A stretch of 64,000 bases of DNA from an uncultured Candidatus Saccharibacteria bacterium (GTDB taxonomy: Bacteria; Patescibacteriota; Doudnabacteria; UBA920): the NCBI GenBank assembly GCA_964372905.1, contig CAYJQY010000005.1:230-64229 (forward strand), in the 5' to 3' direction. A program made the position numbers and the translations under genes. Below, one piece after another: positions 41,279-62,182 of the stretch (its first letter is position 1; every line of letters starts with the position of its first letter). The notes beneath the pieces were generated by a model, which saw nothing but the letters and a program-made list of their open reading frames with translations, was not told the origin of the DNA and ran no database searches.

Positions 41279-42262
41279 TTAACGAATTAAATTATTCCAA
41301 TCCTGGGCAAAGCGTTCTATGCCCTTGTCGGTGAGATCGTGATGGAGGTCAAACGAACGCCAGTCTTTGTTTAAATCTAATTGCTGATATGGAATTGGTT
41401 TGAGTTCACCGGCATTATATTTGAAATCCGCGCCCGGCACGGGCATTTTTCTATCTCCCCATTCTTTCAGAATTTTAAACGGCGCGGTGATAATGTCGCT
41501 GCCGAGCGCCAAGGCGTAGAGAAAGTGTTCCATGGTGCGCACGCTGGCGGTGAGCACTTCCACATGGCCGTCAGGCGCGTGGTCACCGAACGCGCGGCCA
41601 TCGGACGCGCGGCCAGCAACGCTTGTTTGGCCTGCGGCGCTCCCGTTGCCGGAGCCAGCGGAACTCGTGTACCCGCCAGCCGCACCGCCTTCGCCGCCCC
41701 GATACATTTTTATGATATTGGCAATAAGGCCCATGCCGTTTTCGCCGCGGTCATCCAACCGGCCCACGAACGGCGAGACAAACACAGCGCCCTTTTTGGC
41801 GCCGCGCGTGGCCGCATACACGGCCACGGCCTGCGCCTGCGAAAAGCATAAAGTCATATTCACGCGCATACCCTCTTTGATCGCGCGTTCCGCGGCTTCC
41901 AAACCCGCGGCCGTGGTCGGAAATTTTATGTGCGCGTTGGGAATCCAGCCGAACATTTCCTGACCTTGCGCGAACATTTGCTCGGCAGTGGTTAAGCCAT
42001 CGGCATAAACTTCAATGGAGATGGAACCGCCCGGCATCATCTTGGAAAGTTCGCCCACGACTTCCTTATAAAATCCGTAAATTTCTTCCGAAGTGAATTT
42101 TTCGCCGCGCGCCATGCGGGCCGCTGCTTTGGGATGTTTGGCAATCAGGCTGGGGTTGGTAGTCTGGCCGTCCAGAAAACCCAGCAGCTCAATGGCCTGT
42201 TTGGTTTCGGCCGGATCGCCGCTGTCAATAAAAATTTTGGTTTTGAGATTTTGCGAGCGCAT
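41279..42262 (-). CDS. tal: transaldolase (TalC/FSA-like) with ~45-aa G/S/A-rich insertion
   Basis: IFIDSGDPAE…GQTTNPSL…SIEVYADG motifs; the insert is GGEGGAAGGYTSSAGSGNGSAAGQTSVAGRASDG…. Confidence 0.8.
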   Translation of the reverse strand: MRSQNLKTKIFIDSGDPAETKQAIELLGFLDGQTTNPSLIAKHPKAAARMARGEKFTSEEIYGFYKEVVGELSKMMPGGSISIEVYADGLTTAEQMFAQGQEMFGWIPNAHIKFPTTAAGLEAAERAIKEGMRVNMTLCFSQAQAVAVYAATRGAKKGAVFVSPFVGRLDDRGENGMGLIANIIKMYRGGEGGAAGGYTSSAGSGNGSAAGQTSVAGRASDGRAFGDHAPDGHVEVLTASVRTMEHFLYALALGSDIITAPFKILKEWGDRKMPVPGADFKYNAGELKPIPYQQLDLNKDWRSFDLHHDLTDKGIERFAQDWNNLIR

Positions 42263-48224: not shown

Positions 48225-48794
48225 CTAACTTTGCGCCATCTTCGTCACCCACTCACTCACATCGGGCAGCATTGTGCAGCTATTTTCGTCATCAATGGGA
48301 CCGGAGAAATGCTGCATTTTGTGTTTGATGATGAGTTCGCCGCCGAGTTTTTCTTTCAAGATTACGCCGTGCAATAAAGGGATGAGCGGGTCATCATCAG
48401 ATTCTATCAAAACAATGTTGTCAGTGTGCGAGCGGATGCGCCCAAAATCGAGCGGATTAAGGAAAAAATTCTTGAGTTCGGGATGGCCGAGGTCGTTTAT
48501 GAAAGGCGCCACCAGCACGATGCCGCCGACGCGCTCGTTTTCCGAGATCTCCTCCAGATAGCGCATGATGGTAATGGCGCCGGCGCTATGGCCGACCAAA
48601 AATAAATCTTTGTCGGGTGTGCCGACGACTTTGCGCAGCTCGGGCAGCCACAAACTTAAATTCGGCATGTCAGTTTGCGGCATGGGCGGCACCATCACTT
48701 CAAATCCGGCCGCGGCCAGCTCGCGCTTGGTCTGCGGATACCAGCAATAATCGGGATAGCCGCTCCAGCAATGAATAATAACGACGCGTTTCAT
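48225..48794 (-). CDS. alpha/beta-hydrolase-fold serine hydrolase (YdeN/RBBP9-like), paralogous to the LeuS insertion
   Basis: VVIIHCWSGYPD…FLVGHSAGAI (GHSxG nucleophile elbow)…IVLVAPF…; 189 aa. Confidence 0.6.
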   Translation of the reverse strand: MKRVVIIHCWSGYPDYCWYPQTKRELAAAGFEVMVPPMPQTDMPNLSLWLPELRKVVGTPDKDLFLVGHSAGAITIMRYLEEISENERVGGIVLVAPFINDLGHPELKNFFLNPLDFGRIRSHTDNIVLIESDDDPLIPLLHGVILKEKLGGELIIKHKMQHFSGPIDDENSCTMLPDVSEWVTKMAQS

Positions 48795-48848
48795 AAAATC
48801 TTCTTAAAATATAATTTTAGTTGATCCTATCTGCGGAACTGTCTCGGC

Positions 48849-49178
48849 TTACCTGTCATCCCCGCTGCCGGATAATTGTCCCCGCTCCATGCGCGAACGC
48901 AATTTGGCAAGATTGCCGGCTGCGACATCTTCCAAATCTAAACCCAGTTCGGTTGATAATTGAGCCATATACCACAAGACGTCGCCGAGCTCTTCCATAA
49001 TCTCTTTTTTGCGCGCTTCATCAACAACGCCGGCGTGGTCCCGCAGGGCTTTCTTAATCTTTTCCGCCACTTCGCCCGCCTCGCCCACCAAGCCCAGCGT
49101 AGGATAAACAAAATTCTGTCCGCTGTCCGGATACTTGGCGGTAACGCGCGACTGCTCCTGATATTGTTGGAACGTCAT
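48849..49178 (-). CDS. MazG-like nucleotide pyrophosphohydrolase
   Basis: LGLVGEAGEVAE…EELGDVLWY pattern; 109 aa. A TGgTATAAT -10 lies immediately upstream (49187-49195). Confidence 0.65.
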   Translation of the reverse strand: MTFQQYQEQSRVTAKYPDSGQNFVYPTLGLVGEAGEVAEKIKKALRDHAGVVDEARKKEIMEELGDVLWYMAQLSTELGLDLEDVAAGNLAKLRSRMERGQLSGSGDDR

Positions 49179-55697: not shown

Positions 55698-56846
55698 CTA
55701 TATAAACATGTAAAGCAGGCTGAACAGGGCGGCCAGCAAAAATAATACGGTAAAACTGCCAGTTAGGCTAAACAGAATAATGCCCAGCACGCAGGCCAAC
55801 AGCTTGCCGATGGCCAAACTCTGCTCAAAAAAAACAGAGTAAGGTATAATTTGCGTGGCTTCGGCCCGTTCGTAGGTAAGCGTGGACAGCGGAATGAACA
55901 CTGTGTCTTTACTGGTGCGGGACAGCGCATCTATGGCAAATACGCCCCAAAAACCCGTGGCCAAGTAGCGGGCAATCCAGACCAAAAAATAAAAAAACGA
56001 TCCGATTTTTATAAGTTCGCGCTTATTGTATTTATCGGAAATTTTACCGATGTACAGGGCCAAAACCGTGGCTGCTAAAGTGGCCAGGGTTACCAGCGTG
56101 CCGGTTTCCTGATAATCTTTTATGACCACAAAAATGAAGATGGGCCAAACGGTAAGCACCAGCATCTCTTCGCCAAAACCCACATAGCCCAAAAATTTTA
56201 AAGGAAAGGTTTTGTAAAGCCTCAAGGTGTCGCGAAACTGGTAGAGTTTCGGCACAAACACTTCCCGCTTAATGAACAGCGGCAAAAACGAGCAGGAATA
56301 AATTATAGAGGCCACGGCGAAAGTAATGCGCACGCCGAAGCGCTCGGACAAAAATCCGCCAATGAACGGACCCGCTATCATAGTAAGGTTAACAATGGCA
56401 TAGAGCACGGAAAATTCCCGGGCGCGCTGCTCATCGCGGGCAAAACGCGATACGCTGGCATGGAAAGCCGGCCAGAACAAAGATTTTTCAATGGCGAAAG
56501 CCACGGGCGCGAAATAAAGCAAGGTCAAATTGTTCTCGGAACCAAACAGCAAAATCCAATAAATTATTTGAAACGGGATGCTGAATGCGATGGCATGATA
56601 GTAGCCATAGCGGCTGGCTATGCGCGCGCCGAACGGAATAAAAATTATATAAAGCGCGTAAATCGCGCCCATAAACCACAATACCTCCTGCACCGTAAAA
56701 TGCAGGACGCTGTAGAGAAAAATCGGCTCGAACAACAGCACTATGGCAATGGCCAAATCGGCGATGGCTGTGGAAGCATAGAGTTCGGAAATTTGCGTTC
56801 TGACGCTGCGGGCAAAATAAGCGGGCAGGCGAAGTTTGGTGGTCAT
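55698..56846 (-). CDS. MFS-type membrane transporter
   Basis: About 12 predicted TM helices; 382 aa. Confidence 0.6.
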   Translation of the reverse strand: MTTKLRLPAYFARSVRTQISELYASTAIADLAIAIVLLFEPIFLYSVLHFTVQEVLWFMGAIYALYIIFIPFGARIASRYGYYHAIAFSIPFQIIYWILLFGSENNLTLLYFAPVAFAIEKSLFWPAFHASVSRFARDEQRAREFSVLYAIVNLTMIAGPFIGGFLSERFGVRITFAVASIIYSCSFLPLFIKREVFVPKLYQFRDTLRLYKTFPLKFLGYVGFGEEMLVLTVWPIFIFVVIKDYQETGTLVTLATLAATVLALYIGKISDKYNKRELIKIGSFFYFLVWIARYLATGFWGVFAIDALSRTSKDTVFIPLSTLTYERAEATQIIPYSVFFEQSLAIGKLLACVLGIILFSLTGSFTVLFLLAALFSLLYMFI

Positions 56847-57535
56847 GGCTCGACTACTCGAATGTTGTGTTGTTTCAAGACCTTGATGATTTGCCGTTTG
56901 GTCACCGGACCGGATCGTAAAATTTTTACGATGCTGTCAGAAACGCGCACGACCGTGGAAGGTTTGCGGCGCGGCAAACGGCCGGCATCCAGGATAATAT
57001 CGGGGCGATGCTCTTGTTGCTCAAACTGCTTCAGTATGTCTGCAATGCTGTAACTGTCCACGCCGCGCCGCCGCCGGCCCGAGGGGTTTGCGCTGGTAGC
57101 GGTAATGGGCGCGCCCAGCCCTTTGGCCAGGTCCAAGGCCACGCGGTGCCCGGGCCTGCGCAGGCCGATGGTGCCGGTGCCGGCGCTTAATTTTTTCAAA
57201 AATGCCGTTTTGACGCGCAAGGGCAACACTAAAGTCAGCGGCCCGGGCCAAAATCGTTTGGTCAGGCGGGCGGCAATCGGGCTCCAGACGGCAATGCGTT
57301 TGGCATAAGCCAGCGACGGCGCCACAATATGAATGGGCCGGTTGAAGCCGCGCTCCTTGATGCGGTAAATTTTGGCCAGGGCCGCGCGGTTGGTAACAGC
57401 GCAGGCCAAGCCGTAAGATGTATCCGTGGGATAGACCACGGTTTTGCCCCGCTTTAACGCATGCACCAAACTCTTGATAATTTCTTTATGTTTTTTTGAG
57501 TTGTATTTTATGATGATCATGGCAGGCCTCCTCAA
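56843..57535 (-). CDS. tsaC: L-threonylcarbamoyladenylate synthase (TsaC/YrdC/Sua5 family)
   Basis: VVYPTDTSYGLACA…SANPSG pattern. The start may be the internal MIIIKY (57520). Confidence 0.8.
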   Translation of the reverse strand: MRRPAMIIIKYNSKKHKEIIKSLVHALKRGKTVVYPTDTSYGLACAVTNRAALAKIYRIKERGFNRPIHIVAPSLAYAKRIAVWSPIAARLTKRFWPGPLTLVLPLRVKTAFLKKLSAGTGTIGLRRPGHRVALDLAKGLGAPITATSANPSGRRRRGVDSYSIADILKQFEQQEHRPDIILDAGRLPRRKPSTVVRVSDSIVKILRSGPVTKRQIIKVLKQHNIRVVEP

Positions 57536-57551: not shown

Positions 57552-60545
57552 TTATACTACAAGATTCAACAATTTATCCGGAACGAACACCGCGCGCTTG
57601 ACCGCGGCCGCGCCCAACGCGGCCTTTACCTTTTCCGAGGCCAGTGCCTTGTCCTTCACCAACTCCTCTCCGCTCCCCCGCGGCACCGATAATTTATCTT
57701 TAACCCGGCCGTTAACCTGCACCACTATTTCCACGACTTTGTCTACAACCAGCTTCGGATCAAACTCCGGCCAGACTTCCAGTTGCAGTGATTTTTTGCC
57801 GCCCAGCTTGACATTTAATTCTTCGCAAAAATGCGGCGCGAACGGATACAATAATCTCAAAAATATCTGAACGGTTTGCTGGCTCACCGGCTCATCTTTA
57901 ATCTGATTATAAAATTCCATGAACGCGGAAATGGCGGTATTGAAATGATACGCCTCAATATCTTCCTGAACTTTTTTTGCCAATTTGTTTATGGCGCGGC
58001 GTGCCAGTTCGGAATCTTTTTCGCGGTTGCGTAAATCCCTGCCGCGGGCGGGCCAAACTGTCTTGGAACTTTTTCCTCGACCGGCGACCTGATTCTGATT
58101 AACCCAAAACCACACGCGATCCAAAAACCGCCGCACGCCGATAATGCCCTTGTCGTTCCAGCTCACCGTGGCTTCGTGCGGACCCAAAAACAATTCGTAC
58201 ATGCGCAAAGTGTCCGCGCCAAACTTTTTGACGATCTCATCCGGGCTCACCACATTGCCGCGGCTTTTGGACATTTTTTCGCCGTCCGGACCCAAAATGA
58301 TGCCGTGCGGCACGCGCTTGGCATACGGCTCTTTCACCGGCACGCGGCCATCGTCATACAAAAACAGATTCCAAAAGCGCGAATAAAGCAAATGCAAAGT
58401 CGTGTGCTCCATGCCACCAAAATATATGTCCACCGGCAGCCAGCGCTTGAGTACGGCCGCCGCGGCCATCTGCCGGGAGTTTTTGGGATCCGCATAACGC
58501 AAAAAATACCAGGAACTGCCGGCCCACTGCGGCATGGTGTTAGTTTCGCGCCTGGCCGGACCGCCGCAATTCGGGCATTTGACATTCACCCATTTGTCAA
58601 TGGCCGCCAGCGGCGATTCTCCTGTGCCCGTAGGTTCGTATTTTTTTACGGTCGGCAATTTTACCGGCAAATCCTTTTCCGGCACCGCCACAATGCCGCA
58701 CTTCGGACAATGAATTATGGGAATGGGCTCGCCCCAATAGCGCTGGCGCGAAAAGACCCAGTCGCGGAGCTTGTATTGAACTTGAATTTTGCCGTATGCT
58801 TGGGCGATCTCGGGAATGGCTTGGTCAGATGTCATGCCGCTGAACTTTCCTGAATCGTATAATATTCCCTTACCAATAAAACATTGTTCCAAGTTCCTAA
58901 TTTTTGAATCATCGGTCCCATCAGCAGGTTTGAGCGTAGTCTTCAATGGAATATTGTACTTTTTGGCAAAATCAAAGTCCCGCTCATCATGCGCATCGGC
59001 AAATACAGCACCCGTTCCATAATGACCTAATACGAAATCCGCCACCCAAATGGGAATTTCCTGTTTTGTGGCCGGGTTTATGACTTTCACTCCTTGCAAT
59101 TCCACGCCGGTTTTTTCTTTTTCCAGTGCCGTGCGCTGGAGGTCCGTTTTGTTGCGCGCCTCATCAACATACTTTTTAACCTGGTCAAAATTACTGATCT
59201 GCGATTTCAATTGTTCAACAAACGGATGCTCGGGCGCGAGCACCATATAGGTGGCGCCGAAGATCGTGTCCGGGCGGGTAGTGAAAACTGTTACACTGGG
59301 CACGAGCTCATGCAAGATGGCAGGCTCTTTGGCGGCCGTAAAATGGGGCTCCCCGCCTGCTGCTTCCTGCAAACGGCCACCTAGCTCATCATGCAAAATC
59401 TTGCCCTGTTCCAAGGGCACGGCGTAGTCGTTGGGATCACTCAAAATGGAAACGAAACCGGCTTTTCGCTTGATACCGGCGAAATTAAACTGCCACTGGA
59501 ATTTATGGGCAAACGGCCGCGCTTTATCTTTAAATTTTGGTTCGATAAACCCGCCGGCCAAAACCAGTCCGGCAATTTTCCGCGGCAGTTTCTCCAAAAC
59601 TTTCAGCGCCACCGGGCCGCCTAAACTATGCCCGAACAAAATCGTGTTTTCATCAAACTGCTCGTGTTTCAAAACATAATCAACCTGTTCAGATTCACGG
59701 GGGTTATCGGTATTCGGCAGGGCCGGCGCCGACACAGTATGGCCACGCTCTTCCAGTTCTCGTTTCAGCCAAGGGAAAAAATTTTTATCGGGCCGGCCGG
59801 TGAAACCATGCAAAAGCACATAATGAAATTTGCCCGCGATGGGAAACTCAATCTCCGCACCGGTGCTCCTCCCAATCCAATTGGCCTGCTGGAGTTTGAC
59901 CGGCTCCGGCCACTGGGGCAACCGTTTTAAACCGTCCAGCAATTTTTCCGCGTACGCGGTAATCTTCAAATACCACTGGCGCATTTCCTTCTTCACCACT
60001 TGCGTGCCGCAGCGCTCGCACTTGCCGTCAATGACTTCTTCGTTGGCCAGTCCGGTCTTGTCTTTCGGACACCAGTTTATCAACCCGGTGGCCTCGTAAG
60101 CCAACCCGGCTTTGTACAATTGCAAAAAAATCCACTGCGTCCATCTATAATATTTCGGATCCGTAGTATTAAATTCACGACTCCAATCAAAACTCAAGCC
60201 CCAACTCTTAATCTGCTTTTTGGCGTTTTTCACATTTTGCGCCGTGGAAATACTGGGATGGACACCTTTGTTCAGCGCATAATTTTCCGCGGGTAGCCCA
60301 AACGCGTCCCAGCCCATGGGAAACATGGTTTCAAAACCGCGCATGCGATTGTAGCGCGCCGTGACATCGCCGGCAACATACGGCCGCAAGTGGCCCATAT
60401 GCAAACCTTCACCCGATGGATACGGAAATTCTACCAAGACGTACTTTTTGGGGCGGCGCGATTTATCTTTGGAAACAAAAATCTTGTTTTTGTCCCAATG
60501 CGTCTGCCACTTTTTTTCAATAGTTTTGGGTTGGTACTTTTTCAT
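57552..60545 (-). CDS. leuS: leucyl-tRNA synthetase carrying an inserted ~185-aa alpha/beta-hydrolase domain
   Basis: HMGH…KMSKS class I motifs and an editing domain starting TVFTTRPDT. The extra serine-hydrolase-like segment (GHSLGG) lies between WIGRSTGAEIEF and the editing domain. 997 aa. Confidence 0.9.
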   Translation of the reverse strand: MKKYQPKTIEKKWQTHWDKNKIFVSKDKSRRPKKYVLVEFPYPSGEGLHMGHLRPYVAGDVTARYNRMRGFETMFPMGWDAFGLPAENYALNKGVHPSISTAQNVKNAKKQIKSWGLSFDWSREFNTTDPKYYRWTQWIFLQLYKAGLAYEATGLINWCPKDKTGLANEEVIDGKCERCGTQVVKKEMRQWYLKITAYAEKLLDGLKRLPQWPEPVKLQQANWIGRSTGAEIEFPIAGKFHYVLLHGFTGRPDKNFFPWLKRELEERGHTVSAPALPNTDNPRESEQVDYVLKHEQFDENTILFGHSLGGPVALKVLEKLPRKIAGLVLAGGFIEPKFKDKARPFAHKFQWQFNFAGIKRKAGFVSILSDPNDYAVPLEQGKILHDELGGRLQEAAGGEPHFTAAKEPAILHELVPSVTVFTTRPDTIFGATYMVLAPEHPFVEQLKSQISNFDQVKKYVDEARNKTDLQRTALEKEKTGVELQGVKVINPATKQEIPIWVADFVLGHYGTGAVFADAHDERDFDFAKKYNIPLKTTLKPADGTDDSKIRNLEQCFIGKGILYDSGKFSGMTSDQAIPEIAQAYGKIQVQYKLRDWVFSRQRYWGEPIPIIHCPKCGIVAVPEKDLPVKLPTVKKYEPTGTGESPLAAIDKWVNVKCPNCGGPARRETNTMPQWAGSSWYFLRYADPKNSRQMAAAAVLKRWLPVDIYFGGMEHTTLHLLYSRFWNLFLYDDGRVPVKEPYAKRVPHGIILGPDGEKMSKSRGNVVSPDEIVKKFGADTLRMYELFLGPHEATVSWNDKGIIGVRRFLDRVWFWVNQNQVAGRGKSSKTVWPARGRDLRNREKDSELARRAINKLAKKVQEDIEAYHFNTAISAFMEFYNQIKDEPVSQQTVQIFLRLLYPFAPHFCEELNVKLGGKKSLQLEVWPEFDPKLVVDKVVEIVVQVNGRVKDKLSVPRGSGEELVKDKALASEKVKAALGAAAVKRAVFVPDKLLNLVV

Positions 60546-60558
60546 CGCTTTCTCAATC

Positions 60559-61320
60559 TCATCGTTTTTTTAATACTTGCAGCATTTTTTTATGTAAGGT
60601 CGAATTCGCGGCCAGCAGACTATCGGAATTCCAGCGGTAGGGCTTGCCGTCAATGGTGCTAACTTTACCGCCGGCTTCTTTAATTAATAAACCGGCGGCG
60701 GCCGTATCCCAGGCATTAAGCCCCTTTGATAAGAGTATATCGTACCGCCCTGCTGCAACATAGGCACCTGACAGTTCACCGCTGCCAGTGCGCATAAAAA
60801 TCAGGTTATTTTTCCATACCTGTAATAAAAAATTCTTGCCAAAATTGGCATTTTCCAAGCTGTATCTATTGTGAGACGCGATCCAAGTATGATCTAACTC
60901 ACGTTTGGCAGAAACAGTAAGTTTTCTACCGTTTAGCGAAGCTCCTTTCCCTCTCTGGGCGAAAAACAGCTCATCAGCGATAGGGTCGTAAACTACCGAA
61001 AACTCCAATTGATTGTTACCGATGAAAGCTATGGCCACTGAAAATTGGGCTATGCCCCGCGTGAAAGCGGTGGTTCCATCCAGCGGGTCGATGATCCAGA
61101 GCTGTTTGCCTTGCCGTGCCTGCCCAGCTTCTTCGCTTAAAATACCATGGCGAGGGAACCGTTGCTGGATTCGCCCCATGACGTACTTTTCAGCTTTTAT
61201 ATCATATTCCGTCACCAAATCCCACGTCGTGCTTTTATGGGAAACAGCAAAGTGGGTCCGAAATCCCTGGCGCAGAATTGCGCCGGCGCCTTTGGCTAAA
61301 TTTTTTATGAATCGATCCAT
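60559..61320 (-). CDS. inositol monophosphatase family protein (SuhB-like)
   Basis: WIIDPLDGT and WDTAAG motifs. The start was set at MDRFIKN (ATG 61320); the longer ORF-track N-terminus is a low-complexity readthrough. Confidence 0.75.
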   Translation of the reverse strand: MDRFIKNLAKGAGAILRQGFRTHFAVSHKSTTWDLVTEYDIKAEKYVMGRIQQRFPRHGILSEEAGQARQGKQLWIIDPLDGTTAFTRGIAQFSVAIAFIGNNQLEFSVVYDPIADELFFAQRGKGASLNGRKLTVSAKRELDHTWIASHNRYSLENANFGKNFLLQVWKNNLIFMRTGSGELSGAYVAAGRYDILLSKGLNAWDTAAAGLLIKEAGGKVSTIDGKPYRWNSDSLLAANSTLHKKMLQVLKKR

Positions 61321-61336
61321 AAATATATCTTTCTGA

Positions 61337-62182
61337 TTAAATCCTGAATAAGCTAAGCGCGTTATTGGTAGTAGTCTCGGCCACCTGCTCGTAAGACAAT
61401 TTTTTGATTTCCGCGATCTTGCGGGCCACAAATTCCACGTAAGCCGGTTCATTTCTTTTGCCGCGATGCGGCGCTGGAGCAAGAAAAGGCGCATCAGTTT
61501 CCACCAGCAGCCGCTCCAGCAAAATGCCTTTAACAACTGCTTCGCTCCGCCCGGTTTTATCAAAAGTGACGATGCCACTGCAGCTAATGTAGCCACCCAA
61601 CTCAACAAATTGTTGAGCCAGTTCAAGATTCCCGGTATAGCAGTGAACTTGGAAACGATAGTCGGGATATTTTTGCTTTATACCGGCCATCATGTCCGCA
61701 ATATCCCCGTACGCGTCCATCGTGCCCTTAGTCGGCCGGCAGTGAATCATCAAAACCTTATCAAGCTCGCGGGCCAATTCTATTTGCTGGGTAAAAGCCT
61801 CGCGCTGATCCTGTTTAATTTTTTCGATATCGTCCCCCGGCTGAAAATAATAATAATCAAGCCCGCACTCGCCAATGGCCGCAACTTTGGGATTTTTGGC
61901 CAGCGCTTTATAAGGAGCATAATCGAACGTTTCATGCCGGGTCTTAAAAACATGGCCTTCCTCATTCACCATGTGTTCATAAGTGTGTTCGGGATGAAGT
62001 CCAACCGCCGCATATACCCCCCGCGAGTATTTTTGCGCCAATTCCACCGCCGACTTCGAAGTATCAATTTGCGTCCCGGCGTTAATCATCCACACCCCGG
62101 CATCCAGCGCGCGCTGTATCACCGCCTCGGTTTCTTCCTTAAAGTCCTTAAAATTGACGTGGGTGTGAGTATCAATCAGCAT
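61337..62182 (-). CDS. tatD: TatD-family metal-dependent hydrolase/DNase
   Basis: IDTHTH…GECGLDY…D motifs. Confidence 0.85.
   Translation of the reverse strand: MLIDTHTHVNFKDFKEETEAVIQRALDAGVWMINAGTQIDTSKSAVELAQKYSRGVYAAVGLHPEHTYEHMVNEEGHVFKTRHETFDYAPYKALAKNPKVAAIGECGLDYYYFQPGDDIEKIKQDQREAFTQQIELARELDKVLMIHCRPTKGTMDAYGDIADMMAGIKQKYPDYRFQVHCYTGNLELAQQFVELGGYISCSGIVTFDKTGRSEAVVKGILLERLLVETDAPFLAPAPHRGKRNEPAYVEFVARKIAEIKKLSYEQVAETTTNNALSLFRI

What the first reader, a model, noticed from the sequence alone, without database searches (positions are those of the whole stretch)
58900..59900. LeuS contains an inserted serine-hydrolase domain paralogous to a free-standing gene at 48225-48794
Between the catalytic-core motif WIGRSTGAEIEF and the start of the CP1 editing domain (TVFTTRPDT), LeuS has ~185 extra residues: FHYVLLHGFTGRPD…ILFGHSLGGPVALKVL…LVLAGGFI…. 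These align block-for-block with the 189-aa YdeN/RBBP9-like α/β-hydrolase encoded at 48225-48794, including the GHSxG nucleophile elbow. Canonical bacterial LeuS has only a ~15-residue linker here. It is not an intein, because there are no Cys/Ser…HN splice junctions. An esterase fold fused next to the editing domain of an aaRS could add a deacylation or proofreading activity, or could be a neutral domain capture. Either way it is an unusual architecture.
Basis: partly seen in the sequence, partly recalled or inferred. Interest (0 to 1): 0.65.

Follow-up and report, generated by a model that had tools for sequence, protein, structure and literature searches.

The report
Serine hydrolase nested inside leucyl-tRNA synthetase
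The enzyme that loads leucine onto tRNA in this ultra-small (Patescibacteria) bacterium has a complete, apparently active esterase-type enzyme built into a surface loop of its proofreading domain; the arrangement is widespread in this group, I found no description of it, and close relatives of the inserted enzyme are separate genes sitting right next to leuS, which points to an unrecognised helper activity for tRNA charging.

Summary
LeuS (57552-60545, minus strand, 997 aa) carries a 178-residue insertion, aa 240-417. Thermus thermophilus LeuRS has 3 residues at this position. The insert is a lid-less YdeN/RBBP9-type serine hydrolase (PF06821; TM 0.85 to 1UXO). It sits at the tip of the first beta-hairpin of the CP1 editing domain, just upstream of the TTRPDT editing motif.

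The insert is not a one-off. Of the 121 LeuS sequences compared, 102 carry it, with Ser307 and His401 invariant and Asp373 kept as D/E in 99 of 102. The CP1 editing residues also stay intact.

The module is optional and mobile on an evolutionary timescale:
- Near-identical LeuS proteins differ by clean presence or absence of the insert.
- The same subfamily occupies at least two other LeuS sites.
- It also occurs inside ValRS, AlaRS, TsaD, Fmt, Der, SecA and UvrA.

Free-standing members of the subfamily lie directly beside leuS in most loci examined. One locus is syntenic with this window. Another is an operon with a YbaK-like deacylase and an archaeal-type LeuRS.

My best reading is an active accessory aminoacyl-ester hydrolase functionally coupled to LeuRS. 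The substrate is unproven. The window's own free gene (48225-48794) is only a distant paralog (28% identity). I found no published description.

The parts
57552..60545 (-). leuS, 997 aa, bacterial-type leucyl-tRNA synthetase hosting the insert. HMGH is at aa 49-52 and KMSKS at aa 757-761.
   Evidence: ORF. TIGR00396 scores 1002.8 bits against a 548.4 cutoff. Pfam PF00133, PF13603 and PF08264 all match.
59838..59870 (-). Outgoing beta-strand (aa 226-236, RSTGAEIEFPI) of the first CP1 hairpin. It carries the chain into the hydrolase domain.
   Evidence: The AF2 full-length model gives strand E226-236. This segment aligns to T. thermophilus LeuRS residues up to 239.
59295..59828 (-). Inserted YdeN/RBBP9-type serine hydrolase domain, aa 240-417 (178 aa).
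   Evidence: PF06821 scores 30.7 bits against a cutoff of 22. 1UXO matches at E=1.8e-13. The AF2 model of the insert alone has pLDDT 96.4. Foldseek gives TM 0.85 and rmsd 2.2 A to 1UXO, and TM 0.84 to RBBP9 7OEX. The gap relative to Thermus LeuRS is shown.
59619..59633 (-). Nucleophile elbow GHSLG (aa 305-309). Ser307 is the codon at 59625-59627.
   Evidence: Ser307 is present in 102/102 and Gly309 in 102/102 insert-bearing LeuS sequences. It aligns with RBBP9 G-H-S75.
59427..59429 (-). Asp373, the predicted catalytic acid. A second conserved Asp370 lies at 59436-59438.
   Evidence: It aligns with RBBP9 Asp138 in a profile comparison. The position is D or E in 99/102 sequences; Asp370 is present in 98/102.
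59343..59345 (-). His401, the predicted catalytic base.
   Evidence: His401 is present in 102/102 sequences. It aligns with RBBP9 His165.
59514..59534 (-). Subfamily motif F-x-D-x-x-R-P (aa 338-344). It lies in the loop that in RBBP9 holds Glu108, the ligand of the substrate's alpha-amine.
   Evidence: Phe338 is 93% and Arg343 is 90/102 conserved. The role of Glu108 is taken from PMC8866121. The functional equivalence is inferred.
59265..59282 (-). Threonine-rich CP1 editing motif TTRPDT (aa 422-427), starting five residues after the last insert residue (aa 417).
   Evidence: Thr427 is present in 121/121 and Thr422/Thr423 in 119/121 sequences. It aligns to Thermus TTRPDT 247-252.
58977..58991 (-). 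Second CP1 editing motif HDERD (aa 519-523). It is intact.
   Evidence: His519, Asp520, Arg522 and Asp523 are each present in 121/121 sequences.
58872..58898 (-). 'Site 2' loop of CP1 (around aa 554). It is empty in this window. In relatives it holds NUDIX, a SAM-methyltransferase, HAD or a second hydrolase.
   Evidence: Insert positions are mapped.
58686..58712 (-). 'Site 3', the HCPKCG zinc-knuckle hairpin (aa 612-620). It is empty here. In some relatives it holds the same hydrolase subfamily.
   Evidence: P0097, P0188, P0172, P0173, P0177, P0145, L035.
48225..48794 (-). Free-standing PF06821 hydrolase, 189 aa. It is a distant paralog of the insert.
   Evidence: PF06821 scores 61.7 bits. It is 28% identical to the insert, E=5e-18. 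It is more distant from the insert than the 150 best cluster representatives. It lies next to a MazG gene at 48849-49178.
55698..57535 (-). Downstream genes Sua5/YrdC (56843-57535) and an MFS transporter (55698-56846). They serve as synteny markers.
   Evidence: The same gene order is found in L023, where a free hydrolase gene sits between leuS and yrdC, and in the P0115 locus, which has no hydrolase.
60559..61626 (-). Upstream inositol-monophosphatase-family gene, a synteny marker.
   Evidence: Pfam PF00459. The same neighbour is present in L023 and in the P0115 locus.

Best explanation
The insert is a catalytically competent, lid-less Ser-His-Asp hydrolase of the YdeN/RBBP9 family. It is displayed at the tip of the first beta-hairpin of the LeuRS CP1 editing domain, just upstream of the threonine-rich editing peptide. 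It is an optional accessory module that is functionally coupled to LeuRS. It is not part of the core aminoacylation or CP1 editing machinery, both of which remain intact.

The most likely chemistry is hydrolysis of alpha-aminoacyl esters with a free alpha-amine. Candidate substrates are the 3' end of mis-acylated tRNA, or small aminoacyl by-products such as aminoacyl-adenylate or thiolactone. This would give a second clearance or proofreading activity that is either tethered in cis (this window) or supplied in trans from an adjacent gene (relatives).

Shown here: the fold, the family, conservation of the triad, the insertion geometry, presence/absence polymorphism, and genetic linkage to leuS. 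Inferred: enzymatic activity, the substrate, and any cooperation with CP1.
For: Family and fold:
- PF06821 matches above its cutoff.
- YdeN matches at E=1.8e-13.
- The insert-only model has pLDDT 96.4, with TM 0.85 to 1UXO and 0.84 to RBBP9.

Likely active:
- Ser307 and His401 are present in 102/102 sequences, Gly309 in 102/102, and Asp373 is D/E in 99/102. Mean pairwise identity of the insert is only 42%, against 67% for the LeuS core.
- Triad positions align with RBBP9 S75/D138/H165.

Geometry:
- The full-length AF2 model has pLDDT 89.5 and pTM 0.78.
- The domain is carried on paired strands 226-236 and 417-422, immediately before TTRPDT 422-427.

Coupling to LeuRS:
- Free-standing members of the same subfamily (42-55% identical to the insert) lie 0-36 bp from a class-I aaRS gene on the same strand in 5 of 8 loci examined. 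Four of these genes are confirmed LeuRS, and the hydrolase is found both upstream and downstream.
- One more lies in a tight operon of hydrolase, hydrolase, YbaK-like tRNA_edit, Ham1 and archaeal-type LeuRS. Another lies 1.35 kb from leuS.
- L023 is syntenic with this window (Inositol_P, LeuS, [hydrolase], YrdC, MFS) and its LeuS core is 60.6% identical.
- LeuS is by far the main host: 44 of 57 long hits in the exhaustive search, and nearly all fetched genome and metagenome loci.

Other hosts: these are enriched for tRNA-handling enzymes, namely ValRS, AlaRS, Fmt and TsaD. A more distant PF06821 gene overlaps the start of ArgRS.

Family chemistry: RBBP9 hydrolyses aminoacyl-AMC and peptide N-termini only when the alpha-amine is free (PMC8866121). 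It is also cited as a valacyclovir (valyl ester) hydrolase (reference in PMC7730578).
Against: - No activity was measured and no coordinates were available, so I could not check whether Ser307 can be reached by the tRNA CCA end.
- The CP1 editing residues are invariant, so no editing deficit is apparent that would need compensation.
- The insert is dispensable. P0106 lacks it while its flanks are 80-90% identical to those of insert-bearing P0003. The syntenic P0115 locus has neither an insert nor an adjacent hydrolase gene.
- The same domain is also nested in SecA, Der and UvrA, which do not handle aminoacyl-tRNA.
- LeuRS loops in these bacteria also hold unrelated enzymes: NUDIX, GNAT, methyltransferase and HAD. 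This fits a general 'plug-in' tolerance as well as it fits a specific function.
- Adjacency of free copies to leuS could partly be a historical trace of excision or insertion rather than of function.
- Only 8 neighbourhoods were sampled.
Confidence: 0.45

Rival explanations
1. Host-independent passenger. The hydrolase is a robust, portable domain whose termini lie close together, so it tolerates nesting in surface loops. It has been repeatedly inserted into, and lost from, highly expressed essential genes of Patescibacteria. It performs its own job there (for example a general esterase, aminopeptidase or house-cleaning role) and simply borrows expression and inheritance from the host gene. LeuRS is merely the most permissive scaffold.
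For: - The same subfamily is nested in SecA, UvrA, Der, TsaD, Fmt, ValRS and AlaRS, and at three or more different LeuS sites.
- LeuS loops also carry NUDIX, GNAT, methyltransferase and HAD domains.
- Presence or absence differs cleanly between near-identical LeuS proteins.
- Pairwise identities of insert and core correlate only weakly, r=0.17.
- In a crude NJ tree, inserts from other hosts are scattered among the LeuS inserts.
Against: - Free-standing copies are strikingly linked to leuS, upstream or downstream, with both bacterial-type and archaeal-type LeuRS, and once with a YbaK-like deacylase. An unrelated passenger would not need this linkage.
- LeuS dominates as host.
- No DNA-level trace of mobility was found: GC content equals that of the host gene and there are no flanking repeats.
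Confidence: 0.3
2. Target-tethered detoxification. The hydrolase, together with the GNAT and NUDIX cargo seen in relatives, inactivates aminoacyl-adenylate-mimicking inhibitors of LeuRS, or reactive editing by-products such as homocysteine thiolactone, right at the enzyme.
For: - The cargo types recall chemistry used against aminoacyl-nucleotide antibiotics. From my own knowledge, not tested here, MccF is a serine hydrolase and MccE is a GNAT.
- BPHL, an unrelated alpha/beta hydrolase that cleaves amino-acid esters, is an efficient homocysteine thiolactonase (abstract of PMC4198189).
- GNAT and NUDIX domains occur in LeuRS relatives.
- House-cleaning pyrophosphatases (MazG, Ham1) are neighbours of PF06821 genes.
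Against: The case is entirely circumstantial. No inhibitor, immunity gene or biosynthetic cluster is seen in the window. The hosts SecA, UvrA and Der are unexplained.
Confidence: 0.1
3. A neutral or decaying domain capture with no remaining enzymatic role, serving only as a structural spacer.
For: - The insert evolves faster than the core (42% vs 67% identity) and is dispensable.
- Some relatives have short low-complexity fillers at the same site that could be decayed remnants (P0099, P0077).
Against: - The nucleophile Ser and catalytic His are invariant in 102 sequences, and the elbow glycines and the acid are conserved.
- The fold is predicted with very high confidence.
- The triad is also conserved in most of the copies from other hosts and free-standing copies that were aligned.
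Confidence: 0.08
4. An intein or other self-excising protein element, or an assembly or gene-calling artefact.
For: The host range (essential housekeeping proteins) and the presence/absence polymorphism superficially resemble inteins.
Against: - Pfam finds no Hint or intein family.
- Junction residues are variable, with no Cys/Ser/Thr...His-Asn pattern.
- The fold is a complete alpha/beta hydrolase.
- More than 100 independent sequences from NCBI, JGI, ENA and Logan assemblies share the in-frame insert.
Confidence: 0.02

Closest known systems
YdeN of Bacillus subtilis (PDB 1UXO) and Pfam PF06821 Ser_hydrolase
   Same: The fold and size match: a minimal alpha/beta hydrolase of about 180 aa without a lid. 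It shares the GHSxG elbow and the order of Ser, Asp and His. It is the best sequence match (E=1.8e-13) and the best structural match (TM 0.85, rmsd 2.2 A).
   Different: YdeN is a free-standing protein of unknown function. The window's domain is nested in LeuRS and belongs to a distinct subfamily with motifs FFPWLKxELE, FxDxxRP, WxFDFxKIK and HFxxxxEP.
Human RBBP9 (PDB 2QS9, 7OEX)
   Same: It belongs to the same family and has the same fold (TM 0.84), and the triad positions align. RBBP9 acts on aminoacyl substrates with a free alpha-amine (PMC8866121). This is the chemistry needed to cleave aminoacyl esters.
   Different: Identity is only about 20%. The RBBP9 alpha-amine ligand Glu108 is not conserved as such; the subfamily has a D-x-x-R-P motif in that loop. 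RBBP9 is not associated with aaRS. The substrate of the insert is unknown.
CP1 editing domain of LeuRS/IleRS/ValRS
   Same: It is a hydrolytic module inserted into the class Ia catalytic body that clears mis-acylated tRNA. The new domain is nested within CP1 itself and lies next to CP1's threonine-rich motif.
   Different: The fold and catalytic mechanism are unrelated: CP1 has no Ser-His-Asp triad. CP1 is universal and intact here, whereas the hydrolase is optional and lineage-restricted.
Trans-editing factors (YbaK/ProXp PF04073, AlaX, DTD)
   Same: They are small free-standing or aaRS-fused deacylases, often encoded near aaRS genes. In one locus the hydrolase subfamily shares an operon with a YbaK-like protein and LeuRS.
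   Different: There is no sequence or fold relationship, and deacylase activity of the PF06821 subfamily has not been shown.
aaRS with embedded accessory enzyme domains, e.g. NCBIfam NF040702 'isoleucine--tRNA ligase, N-acetyltransferase domain-containing'
   Same: This is a precedent for a small enzyme domain built into a class Ia synthetase (model listed). LeuRS relatives here also carry a GNAT domain.
   Different: The cargo, host and site all differ. I found no curated model or paper for a hydrolase-bearing LeuRS.
Inteins
   Same: They are in-frame elements in essential housekeeping proteins with patchy presence or absence among close relatives.
   Different: The insert has no Hint fold, no splice-junction residues and no homing endonuclease. 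It is predicted to remain in the mature protein.

Membership tests
PF06821 Ser_hydrolase (YdeN/RBBP9 family) | Match to the family HMM above the curated gathering score | tested here: met
   Score of 30.7 bits against a cutoff of 22, over aa 242-402 and model positions 1-154 of 172.
PF06821 Ser_hydrolase (YdeN/RBBP9 family) | Minimal lid-less alpha/beta-hydrolase fold of about 180 residues | tested here: met
   AF2 pLDDT is 96.4. Foldseek gives TM 0.85 and rmsd 2.2 A to 1UXO, and TM 0.84 to 7OEX, 9FCR and 2QS9.
PF06821 Ser_hydrolase (YdeN/RBBP9 family) | Ser nucleophile in a G-x-S-x-G elbow, plus catalytic Asp and His in the family order | tested here: met
   GHS307LG, Asp373 and His401 align with RBBP9 S75, D138 and H165. 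Conservation is 102/102 for Ser, 99/102 (D/E) for the acid and 102/102 for His.
PF06821 Ser_hydrolase (YdeN/RBBP9 family) | Serine-dependent hydrolytic activity | not testable with these tools
   This needs an enzyme assay or activity-based probe labelling.
Bacterial-type leucyl-tRNA synthetase (TIGR00396) | Equivalog HMM above cutoff; HIGH and KMSKS motifs; CP1 editing motifs | tested here: met
   Score of 1002.8 bits against 548.4. HMGH is at 49-52, KMSKS at 757-761, TTRPDT at 422-427 and HDERD at 519-523. E=1.7e-223 to T. thermophilus LeuRS.
Intein | Hint-fold domain with N-terminal Cys/Ser and C-terminal His-Asn followed by Cys/Ser/Thr | tested here: not met
   Pfam finds no Hint or intein family. 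Junctions are variable, for example ...EFPIAGKFHY / ...LVPSVTVF, with no HN. The fold is an alpha/beta hydrolase.
Aminoacyl-tRNA editing / trans-editing domains (CP1, YbaK/INS, AlaX, DTD) | Homology to a known editing fold | tested here: not met
   The insert matches only alpha/beta-hydrolase families.
Aminoacyl-tRNA editing / trans-editing domains (CP1, YbaK/INS, AlaX, DTD) | Fusion to, or conserved gene neighbourhood with, an aaRS | tested here: met
   The domain is nested in LeuRS, ValRS and AlaRS. Free copies are adjacent to leuS in 5 of 8 loci, and one more shares an operon with a YbaK-like gene and LeuRS.
Aminoacyl-tRNA editing / trans-editing domains (CP1, YbaK/INS, AlaX, DTD) | Deacylation of mis-acylated tRNA | not testable with these tools
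   This requires biochemical assays with Ile-, Nva-, Met- or D-aminoacyl-tRNALeu.

The most novel reading that the evidence does not exclude
This PF06821 subfamily may be a previously unrecognised, structurally new class of aaRS-associated aminoacyl-ester hydrolase. It would be a Ser-His-Asp 'editing' or clearance factor of Patescibacteria, and apparently of organisms with an archaeal-type LeuRS. It can work in trans from a gene next to leuS or be plugged in cis into LeuRS surface loops. More broadly, LeuRS in these reduced genomes would act as a modular dock for exchangeable small enzymes (hydrolase, NUDIX, GNAT, methyltransferase, HAD).
Probability: 0.3. Interest if true: 0.85.

Novelty: new variant of a known kind. 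Interest (0 to 1): 0.7.

Why it matters
All aminoacyl-tRNA proofreading domains I know of belong to a handful of folds. A serine-hydrolase fold recruited to LeuRS, whether nested beside the CP1 active site or encoded next to leuS, would add a new one. It would also make an open question testable: how genome-reduced, host-dependent bacteria that scavenge amino acids keep translation accurate.

Whatever the substrate, the data show that an essential, highly conserved enzyme tolerates repeated gain, loss and relocation of whole enzyme domains in at least four or five loops. That is of interest for protein evolution and for engineering domain-insertion scaffolds.

There is also a practical consequence. 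Some of these LeuRS proteins are mis-named 'alpha/beta fold hydrolase' in public annotation.

Tried and rejected
- **Intein or self-splicing element.** Rejected: no Hint family, and the junctions are variable.
- **Recent mobile-DNA insertion.** There are no flanking direct or inverted repeats beyond chance-size matches. GC is 0.514 for the insert against 0.504 for the rest of leuS.
- **Third copy in the window.** The only other tblastn hit (41765-42027, E=0.045) lies antisense to a 327-aa ORF on the minus strand (41279-42262) that reads to me like a transaldolase-type gene (no family search run), so I treat it as spurious.
- **The window's free gene as donor of the insert.** Rejected on distance: 28% identity, against 46-55% for other free-standing proteins.
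- **Loss of CP1 editing compensated by the hydrolase.** Rejected for insert-bearing LeuS, where the editing residues are invariant. A small sublineage (P0109, P0115, L023) has YDSVPQT in place of TTRPDT, but this does not track hydrolase presence.
- **Single ancient insertion with vertical descent.** This fits poorly with the 90%-identical insert-plus and insert-minus pair and the weak core/insert correlation. The narrow identity range weakens the correlation test, however.
- **Searches that fell short.** The genome scan with a 20-sequence alignment failed because no stretch was conserved enough. The 8-sequence alignment gave a narrow pattern and only 13 and 11 loci. The window's exact LeuS is not in the gene-position collection, so the source record was not identified.
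- **Literature.** Searches found no description of a hydrolase-bearing LeuRS. One search call was mis-formatted.
- **Limits of the methods.** The NJ tree is a crude BLOSUM-distance tree rooted by choice and is used only qualitatively. Model coordinates and PAE were not available, so the distance from Ser307 to the CP1 pocket could not be measured.

Full report
**Observation.** The minus-strand ORF at 57552-60545 encodes a 997-aa bacterial-type leucyl-tRNA synthetase. It scores 1002.8 bits against TIGR00396 (cutoff 548.4), in two stretches. The HMGH, KMSKS, TTRPDT and HDERD motifs are all present. Aligned to T. thermophilus LeuRS (1H3N), residues 1-239 match 1-239 and residues 418-752 match 243-579. 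The window therefore has 178 residues (aa 240-417, 59295-59828) where Thermus has three. This segment matches Pfam PF06821 Ser_hydrolase above its gathering score, B. subtilis YdeN at E=1.8e-13, and RBBP9 at E=1e-5. Modelled alone, it reaches pLDDT 96.4 and superposes on 1UXO (TM 0.85, rmsd 2.2 A) and on RBBP9 (TM 0.84). The 189-aa ORF at 48225-48794 belongs to the same Pfam family and aligns to the insert at 28% identity, E=5e-18.

**Anatomy.** In the full-length AF2 model (pLDDT 89.5, pTM 0.78; insert about 95), the chain leaves the LeuRS body on strand 226-236, forms the hydrolase domain (241-414), and returns on strand 417-422. That strand runs straight into the threonine-rich editing peptide TTRPDT (422-427). 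The Pfam editing-domain model PF13603 resumes at its position 22 after the insert. The domain therefore sits inside CP1, at the tip of its first beta-hairpin, not between the catalytic core and CP1. A profile alignment to RBBP9 places Ser307, Asp373 and His401 on the RBBP9 triad S75, D138 and H165.

**Distribution and conservation.** Among the 120 best LeuS homologs plus the query, 102 of 121 carry the insert. The named ones are mostly Candidatus Doudnabacteria or Patescibacteria. Scans of species-representative genomes and of metagenomes find it in LeuS of MAGs labelled Uhrbacteria, Curtissbacteria, Campbellbacteria and Paceibacterota, and in MAGs labelled Pacearchaeota. Across the 102 inserts, mean pairwise identity is 42%, against 67% for the LeuS core. 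Even so, Ser307, Gly309 and His401 are invariant, His306 is present in 99/102, Asp370 in 98/102, and Asp373 is D or E in 99/102. The CP1 editing residues are also invariant or nearly so across all 121 sequences. This argues for an active enzyme and against both a decaying relic and a replacement for a lost CP1 function.

**The module is optional and relocatable.**
- Insert-free LeuS proteins (797-857 aa, with an 11-25-residue hairpin) are interspersed among insert-bearing ones.
- P0106 (829 aa) and P0003 (1187 aa) are 80-90% identical in their flanks. They differ by two clean domain-sized indels: the hydrolase at this site and a methyltransferase about 130 residues downstream.
- An exhaustive phmmer search with the insert found 1729 hits at E<=1e-3 and 566 at E<=1e-10. 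Of the 57 long proteins among the best 150, 44 are LeuS.
- Most of those LeuS carry the domain at this site. Some carry it in the zinc-knuckle hairpin after CP1 (around aa 616). One has a second copy in a CP1 loop (around aa 554), and one has a tandem pair.
- The same subfamily (34-50% identical to the window's insert) is nested in ValRS, AlaRS, TsaD, Fmt, Der/EngA, SecA and UvrA. These proteins occur in independent assemblies.
- LeuS loops of relatives also hold NUDIX, GNAT, SAM-methyltransferase and HAD domains.
- In the window itself there is no DNA-level trace of recent insertion.

**Link to LeuRS.** Free-standing proteins of the insert's subfamily (175-193 aa, starting with Met at the domain boundary, 42-55% identical to the insert) exist. 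They are much closer to the insert than the window's own free gene is. I examined the neighbourhoods of eight of them:
- P0122, P0127 and P0135 end 6-36 bp upstream of an insert-free leuS.
- P0184 abuts a 957-aa class-I aaRS gene.
- P0147 starts 2 bp downstream of an insert-free leuS.
- P0138 heads a tightly overlapping operon of hydrolase, second hydrolase, YbaK-like tRNA_edit, Ham1-like pyrophosphatase and archaeal-type LeuRS (TIGR00395, 750.7 bits).
- P0150 lies 1.35 kb from leuS.
- Only P0126, on a 3-kb contig, shows no aaRS.

The P0147 locus is syntenic with the window (Inositol_P, LeuS, hydrolase, Sua5/YrdC, MFS), and its LeuS core is 60.6% identical. A second syntenic locus (MetRS, TatD, Inositol_P, LeuS, YrdC, MFS) has no hydrolase at all. 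One conserved locus thus shows three states: nested, adjacent and absent. Of two controls from the more distant 'classical' PF06821 group, one is unlinked to any aaRS and the other overlaps the start of ArgRS.

**Mechanism.** What is shown:
- a complete lid-less alpha/beta hydrolase with a strictly conserved triad;
- its position on a solvent-exposed hairpin next to the CP1 active-site peptide;
- its dispensability;
- its genetic linkage to LeuRS in three architectures.

What is inferred is that it hydrolyses alpha-aminoacyl esters. The inference rests on three things. RBBP9, the only characterised family member, needs a free alpha-amine and removes single aminoacyl groups (PMC8866121), and it is cited as a valyl-ester (valacyclovir) hydrolase. 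The fold lacks a lid, which suits bulky leaving groups (my inference). The company the domain keeps includes LeuRS, ValRS, AlaRS, ArgRS, Fmt, TsaD and a YbaK-like deacylase. I therefore favour an accessory clearance or proofreading hydrolase coupled to LeuRS, acting in cis here and in trans where it is a neighbouring gene (confidence 0.45).

The main rival (0.30) is a host-independent passenger enzyme that exploits permissive loops of essential genes. It is supported by the SecA, UvrA and Der hosts and by the variety of other cargo. A detoxification role against aminoacyl-adenylate mimics or thiolactone is possible but purely circumstantial (0.10). Neutral capture (0.08) and an intein or artefact (0.02) are disfavoured.

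**Comparison and novelty.** By every sequence and fold criterion tested, the domain is a member of PF06821. Its activity is untested. It is not a member of any known editing-domain family, but it shares their defining genomic behaviour of fusion to and adjacency with aaRS genes. Precedents for enzymes embedded in class Ia synthetases exist, for example the NCBIfam model for GNAT-containing IleRS. I found no curated model or paper describing a hydrolase-bearing LeuRS, and some of these proteins are simply mis-named 'alpha/beta fold hydrolase'. I rate it a new variant of a known kind, with interest 0.7. If the subfamily proves to be a new fold class of aaRS-associated deacylase, the interest would be higher.

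**Limits.**
- No enzymatic data were available, and no model coordinates or PAE.
- Only eight neighbourhoods and two controls were examined.
- The tree is a crude NJ tree.
- Pattern-based locus scans were narrow.
- The source organism was not identified beyond its similarity to Patescibacteria.

Noticed in passing
window 58872-58898 (LeuS aa ~554, empty here); relatives P0003, P0024, P0008, P0017, P0027, P0054, L008: A second insertion hot spot lies inside CP1. In relatives it holds a SAM-methyltransferase (Methyltransf_23/TehB), NUDIX, HAD_2 or a second PF06821 hydrolase. One LeuRS can therefore carry two nested enzymes.
   Followed up: partly
window 58686-58712 (LeuS aa 612-620, empty here); P0097, P0188, P0172, P0173, P0177, P0145, L035:182-3514: The same hydrolase subfamily is inserted in the HCxxCG zinc-knuckle hairpin after CP1 in some LeuS proteins. 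Most of these inserts cluster together. P0097 and P0131 cluster with site-1 inserts, which suggests relocation between sites.
   Followed up: partly
P0155, P0137, P0172, P0244, P0149, P0020 (LeuS relatives): Further cargo and sites were seen in LeuS relatives. NUDIX occurs at around aa 207 (once duplicated) and near the start of CP1. A GNAT acetyltransferase sits immediately before the hydrolase. HAD_2 occurs at around aa 668. One protein has tandem hydrolases.
   Followed up: partly
L009:1679-5365 (Peribacteria-labelled chromosome OZ246420.1); P0151, P0185, P0168, P0249, P0263, P0207: The hydrolase subfamily is nested in SecA (full length 1229 aa, hydrolase at aa 775-950), ValRS, AlaRS, TsaD, Der/EngA, Fmt and UvrA. 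The L009 SecA frame is open only if TGA is read as sense. P0207 and P0263 show Trp where Gly is expected (WHSLWW), which points to code-25 organisms translated with the wrong table.
   Followed up: partly
L020:4001-8549: A tightly overlapping operon encodes hydrolase, second PF06821 hydrolase, YbaK-like tRNA_edit protein, Ham1/RdgB-like NTP pyrophosphatase and archaeal-type LeuRS.
   Followed up: partly
L025:401-2739: A more distant free-standing PF06821 gene (P0190) overlaps the start of an arginyl-tRNA synthetase gene by 4 bp. Linkage of this family to aaRS genes may therefore extend beyond the insert-type subfamily.
   Followed up: no
window 48225-49178: The window's free-standing PF06821 gene lies directly downstream of a MazG nucleotide pyrophosphohydrolase gene. 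Together with Ham1 (L020) and the NUDIX cargo in LeuRS, three unrelated house-cleaning pyrophosphatase folds accompany this hydrolase family.
   Followed up: no
P0109, P0115, L023:1078-3498 (insert-free LeuS, syntenic with the window): In this sublineage the threonine-rich editing motif TTRPDT is replaced by YDSVPQT, while HDERD is kept. This is a possible change in CP1 editing. It does not track the presence of an adjacent hydrolase gene.
   Followed up: partly
P0124, P0130, P0132, P0149, P0153, P0159, P0164, P0171, P0179, P0252: Many database proteins begin with the hydrolase domain and continue as the C-terminal part of LeuRS. I did not resolve whether these are gene calls truncated at contig ends or genuinely split LeuRS genes.
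   Followed up: no
P0099, P0077 (LeuS relatives, site 1): Instead of a hydrolase or a short hairpin, these carry 37-54 residues of Ser/Glu/Pro-rich low-complexity sequence. This may be a decayed remnant or a different filler.
   Followed up: no
window 60559-61626: The mechanical ORF for the inositol-monophosphatase-family gene is 355 aa from a TTG start. The Pfam domain begins at aa 105, and the syntenic genes called in related loci are about 254-261 aa, so the true start is probably near an internal Met.
   Followed up: no
window 57552-58290 (LeuS aa ~752-757): Relative to T. thermophilus LeuRS, this LeuRS lacks about 57 residues (Thermus 580-636) just before KMSKS. From my own knowledge, this is the region of the leucine-specific domain.
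   Followed up: no
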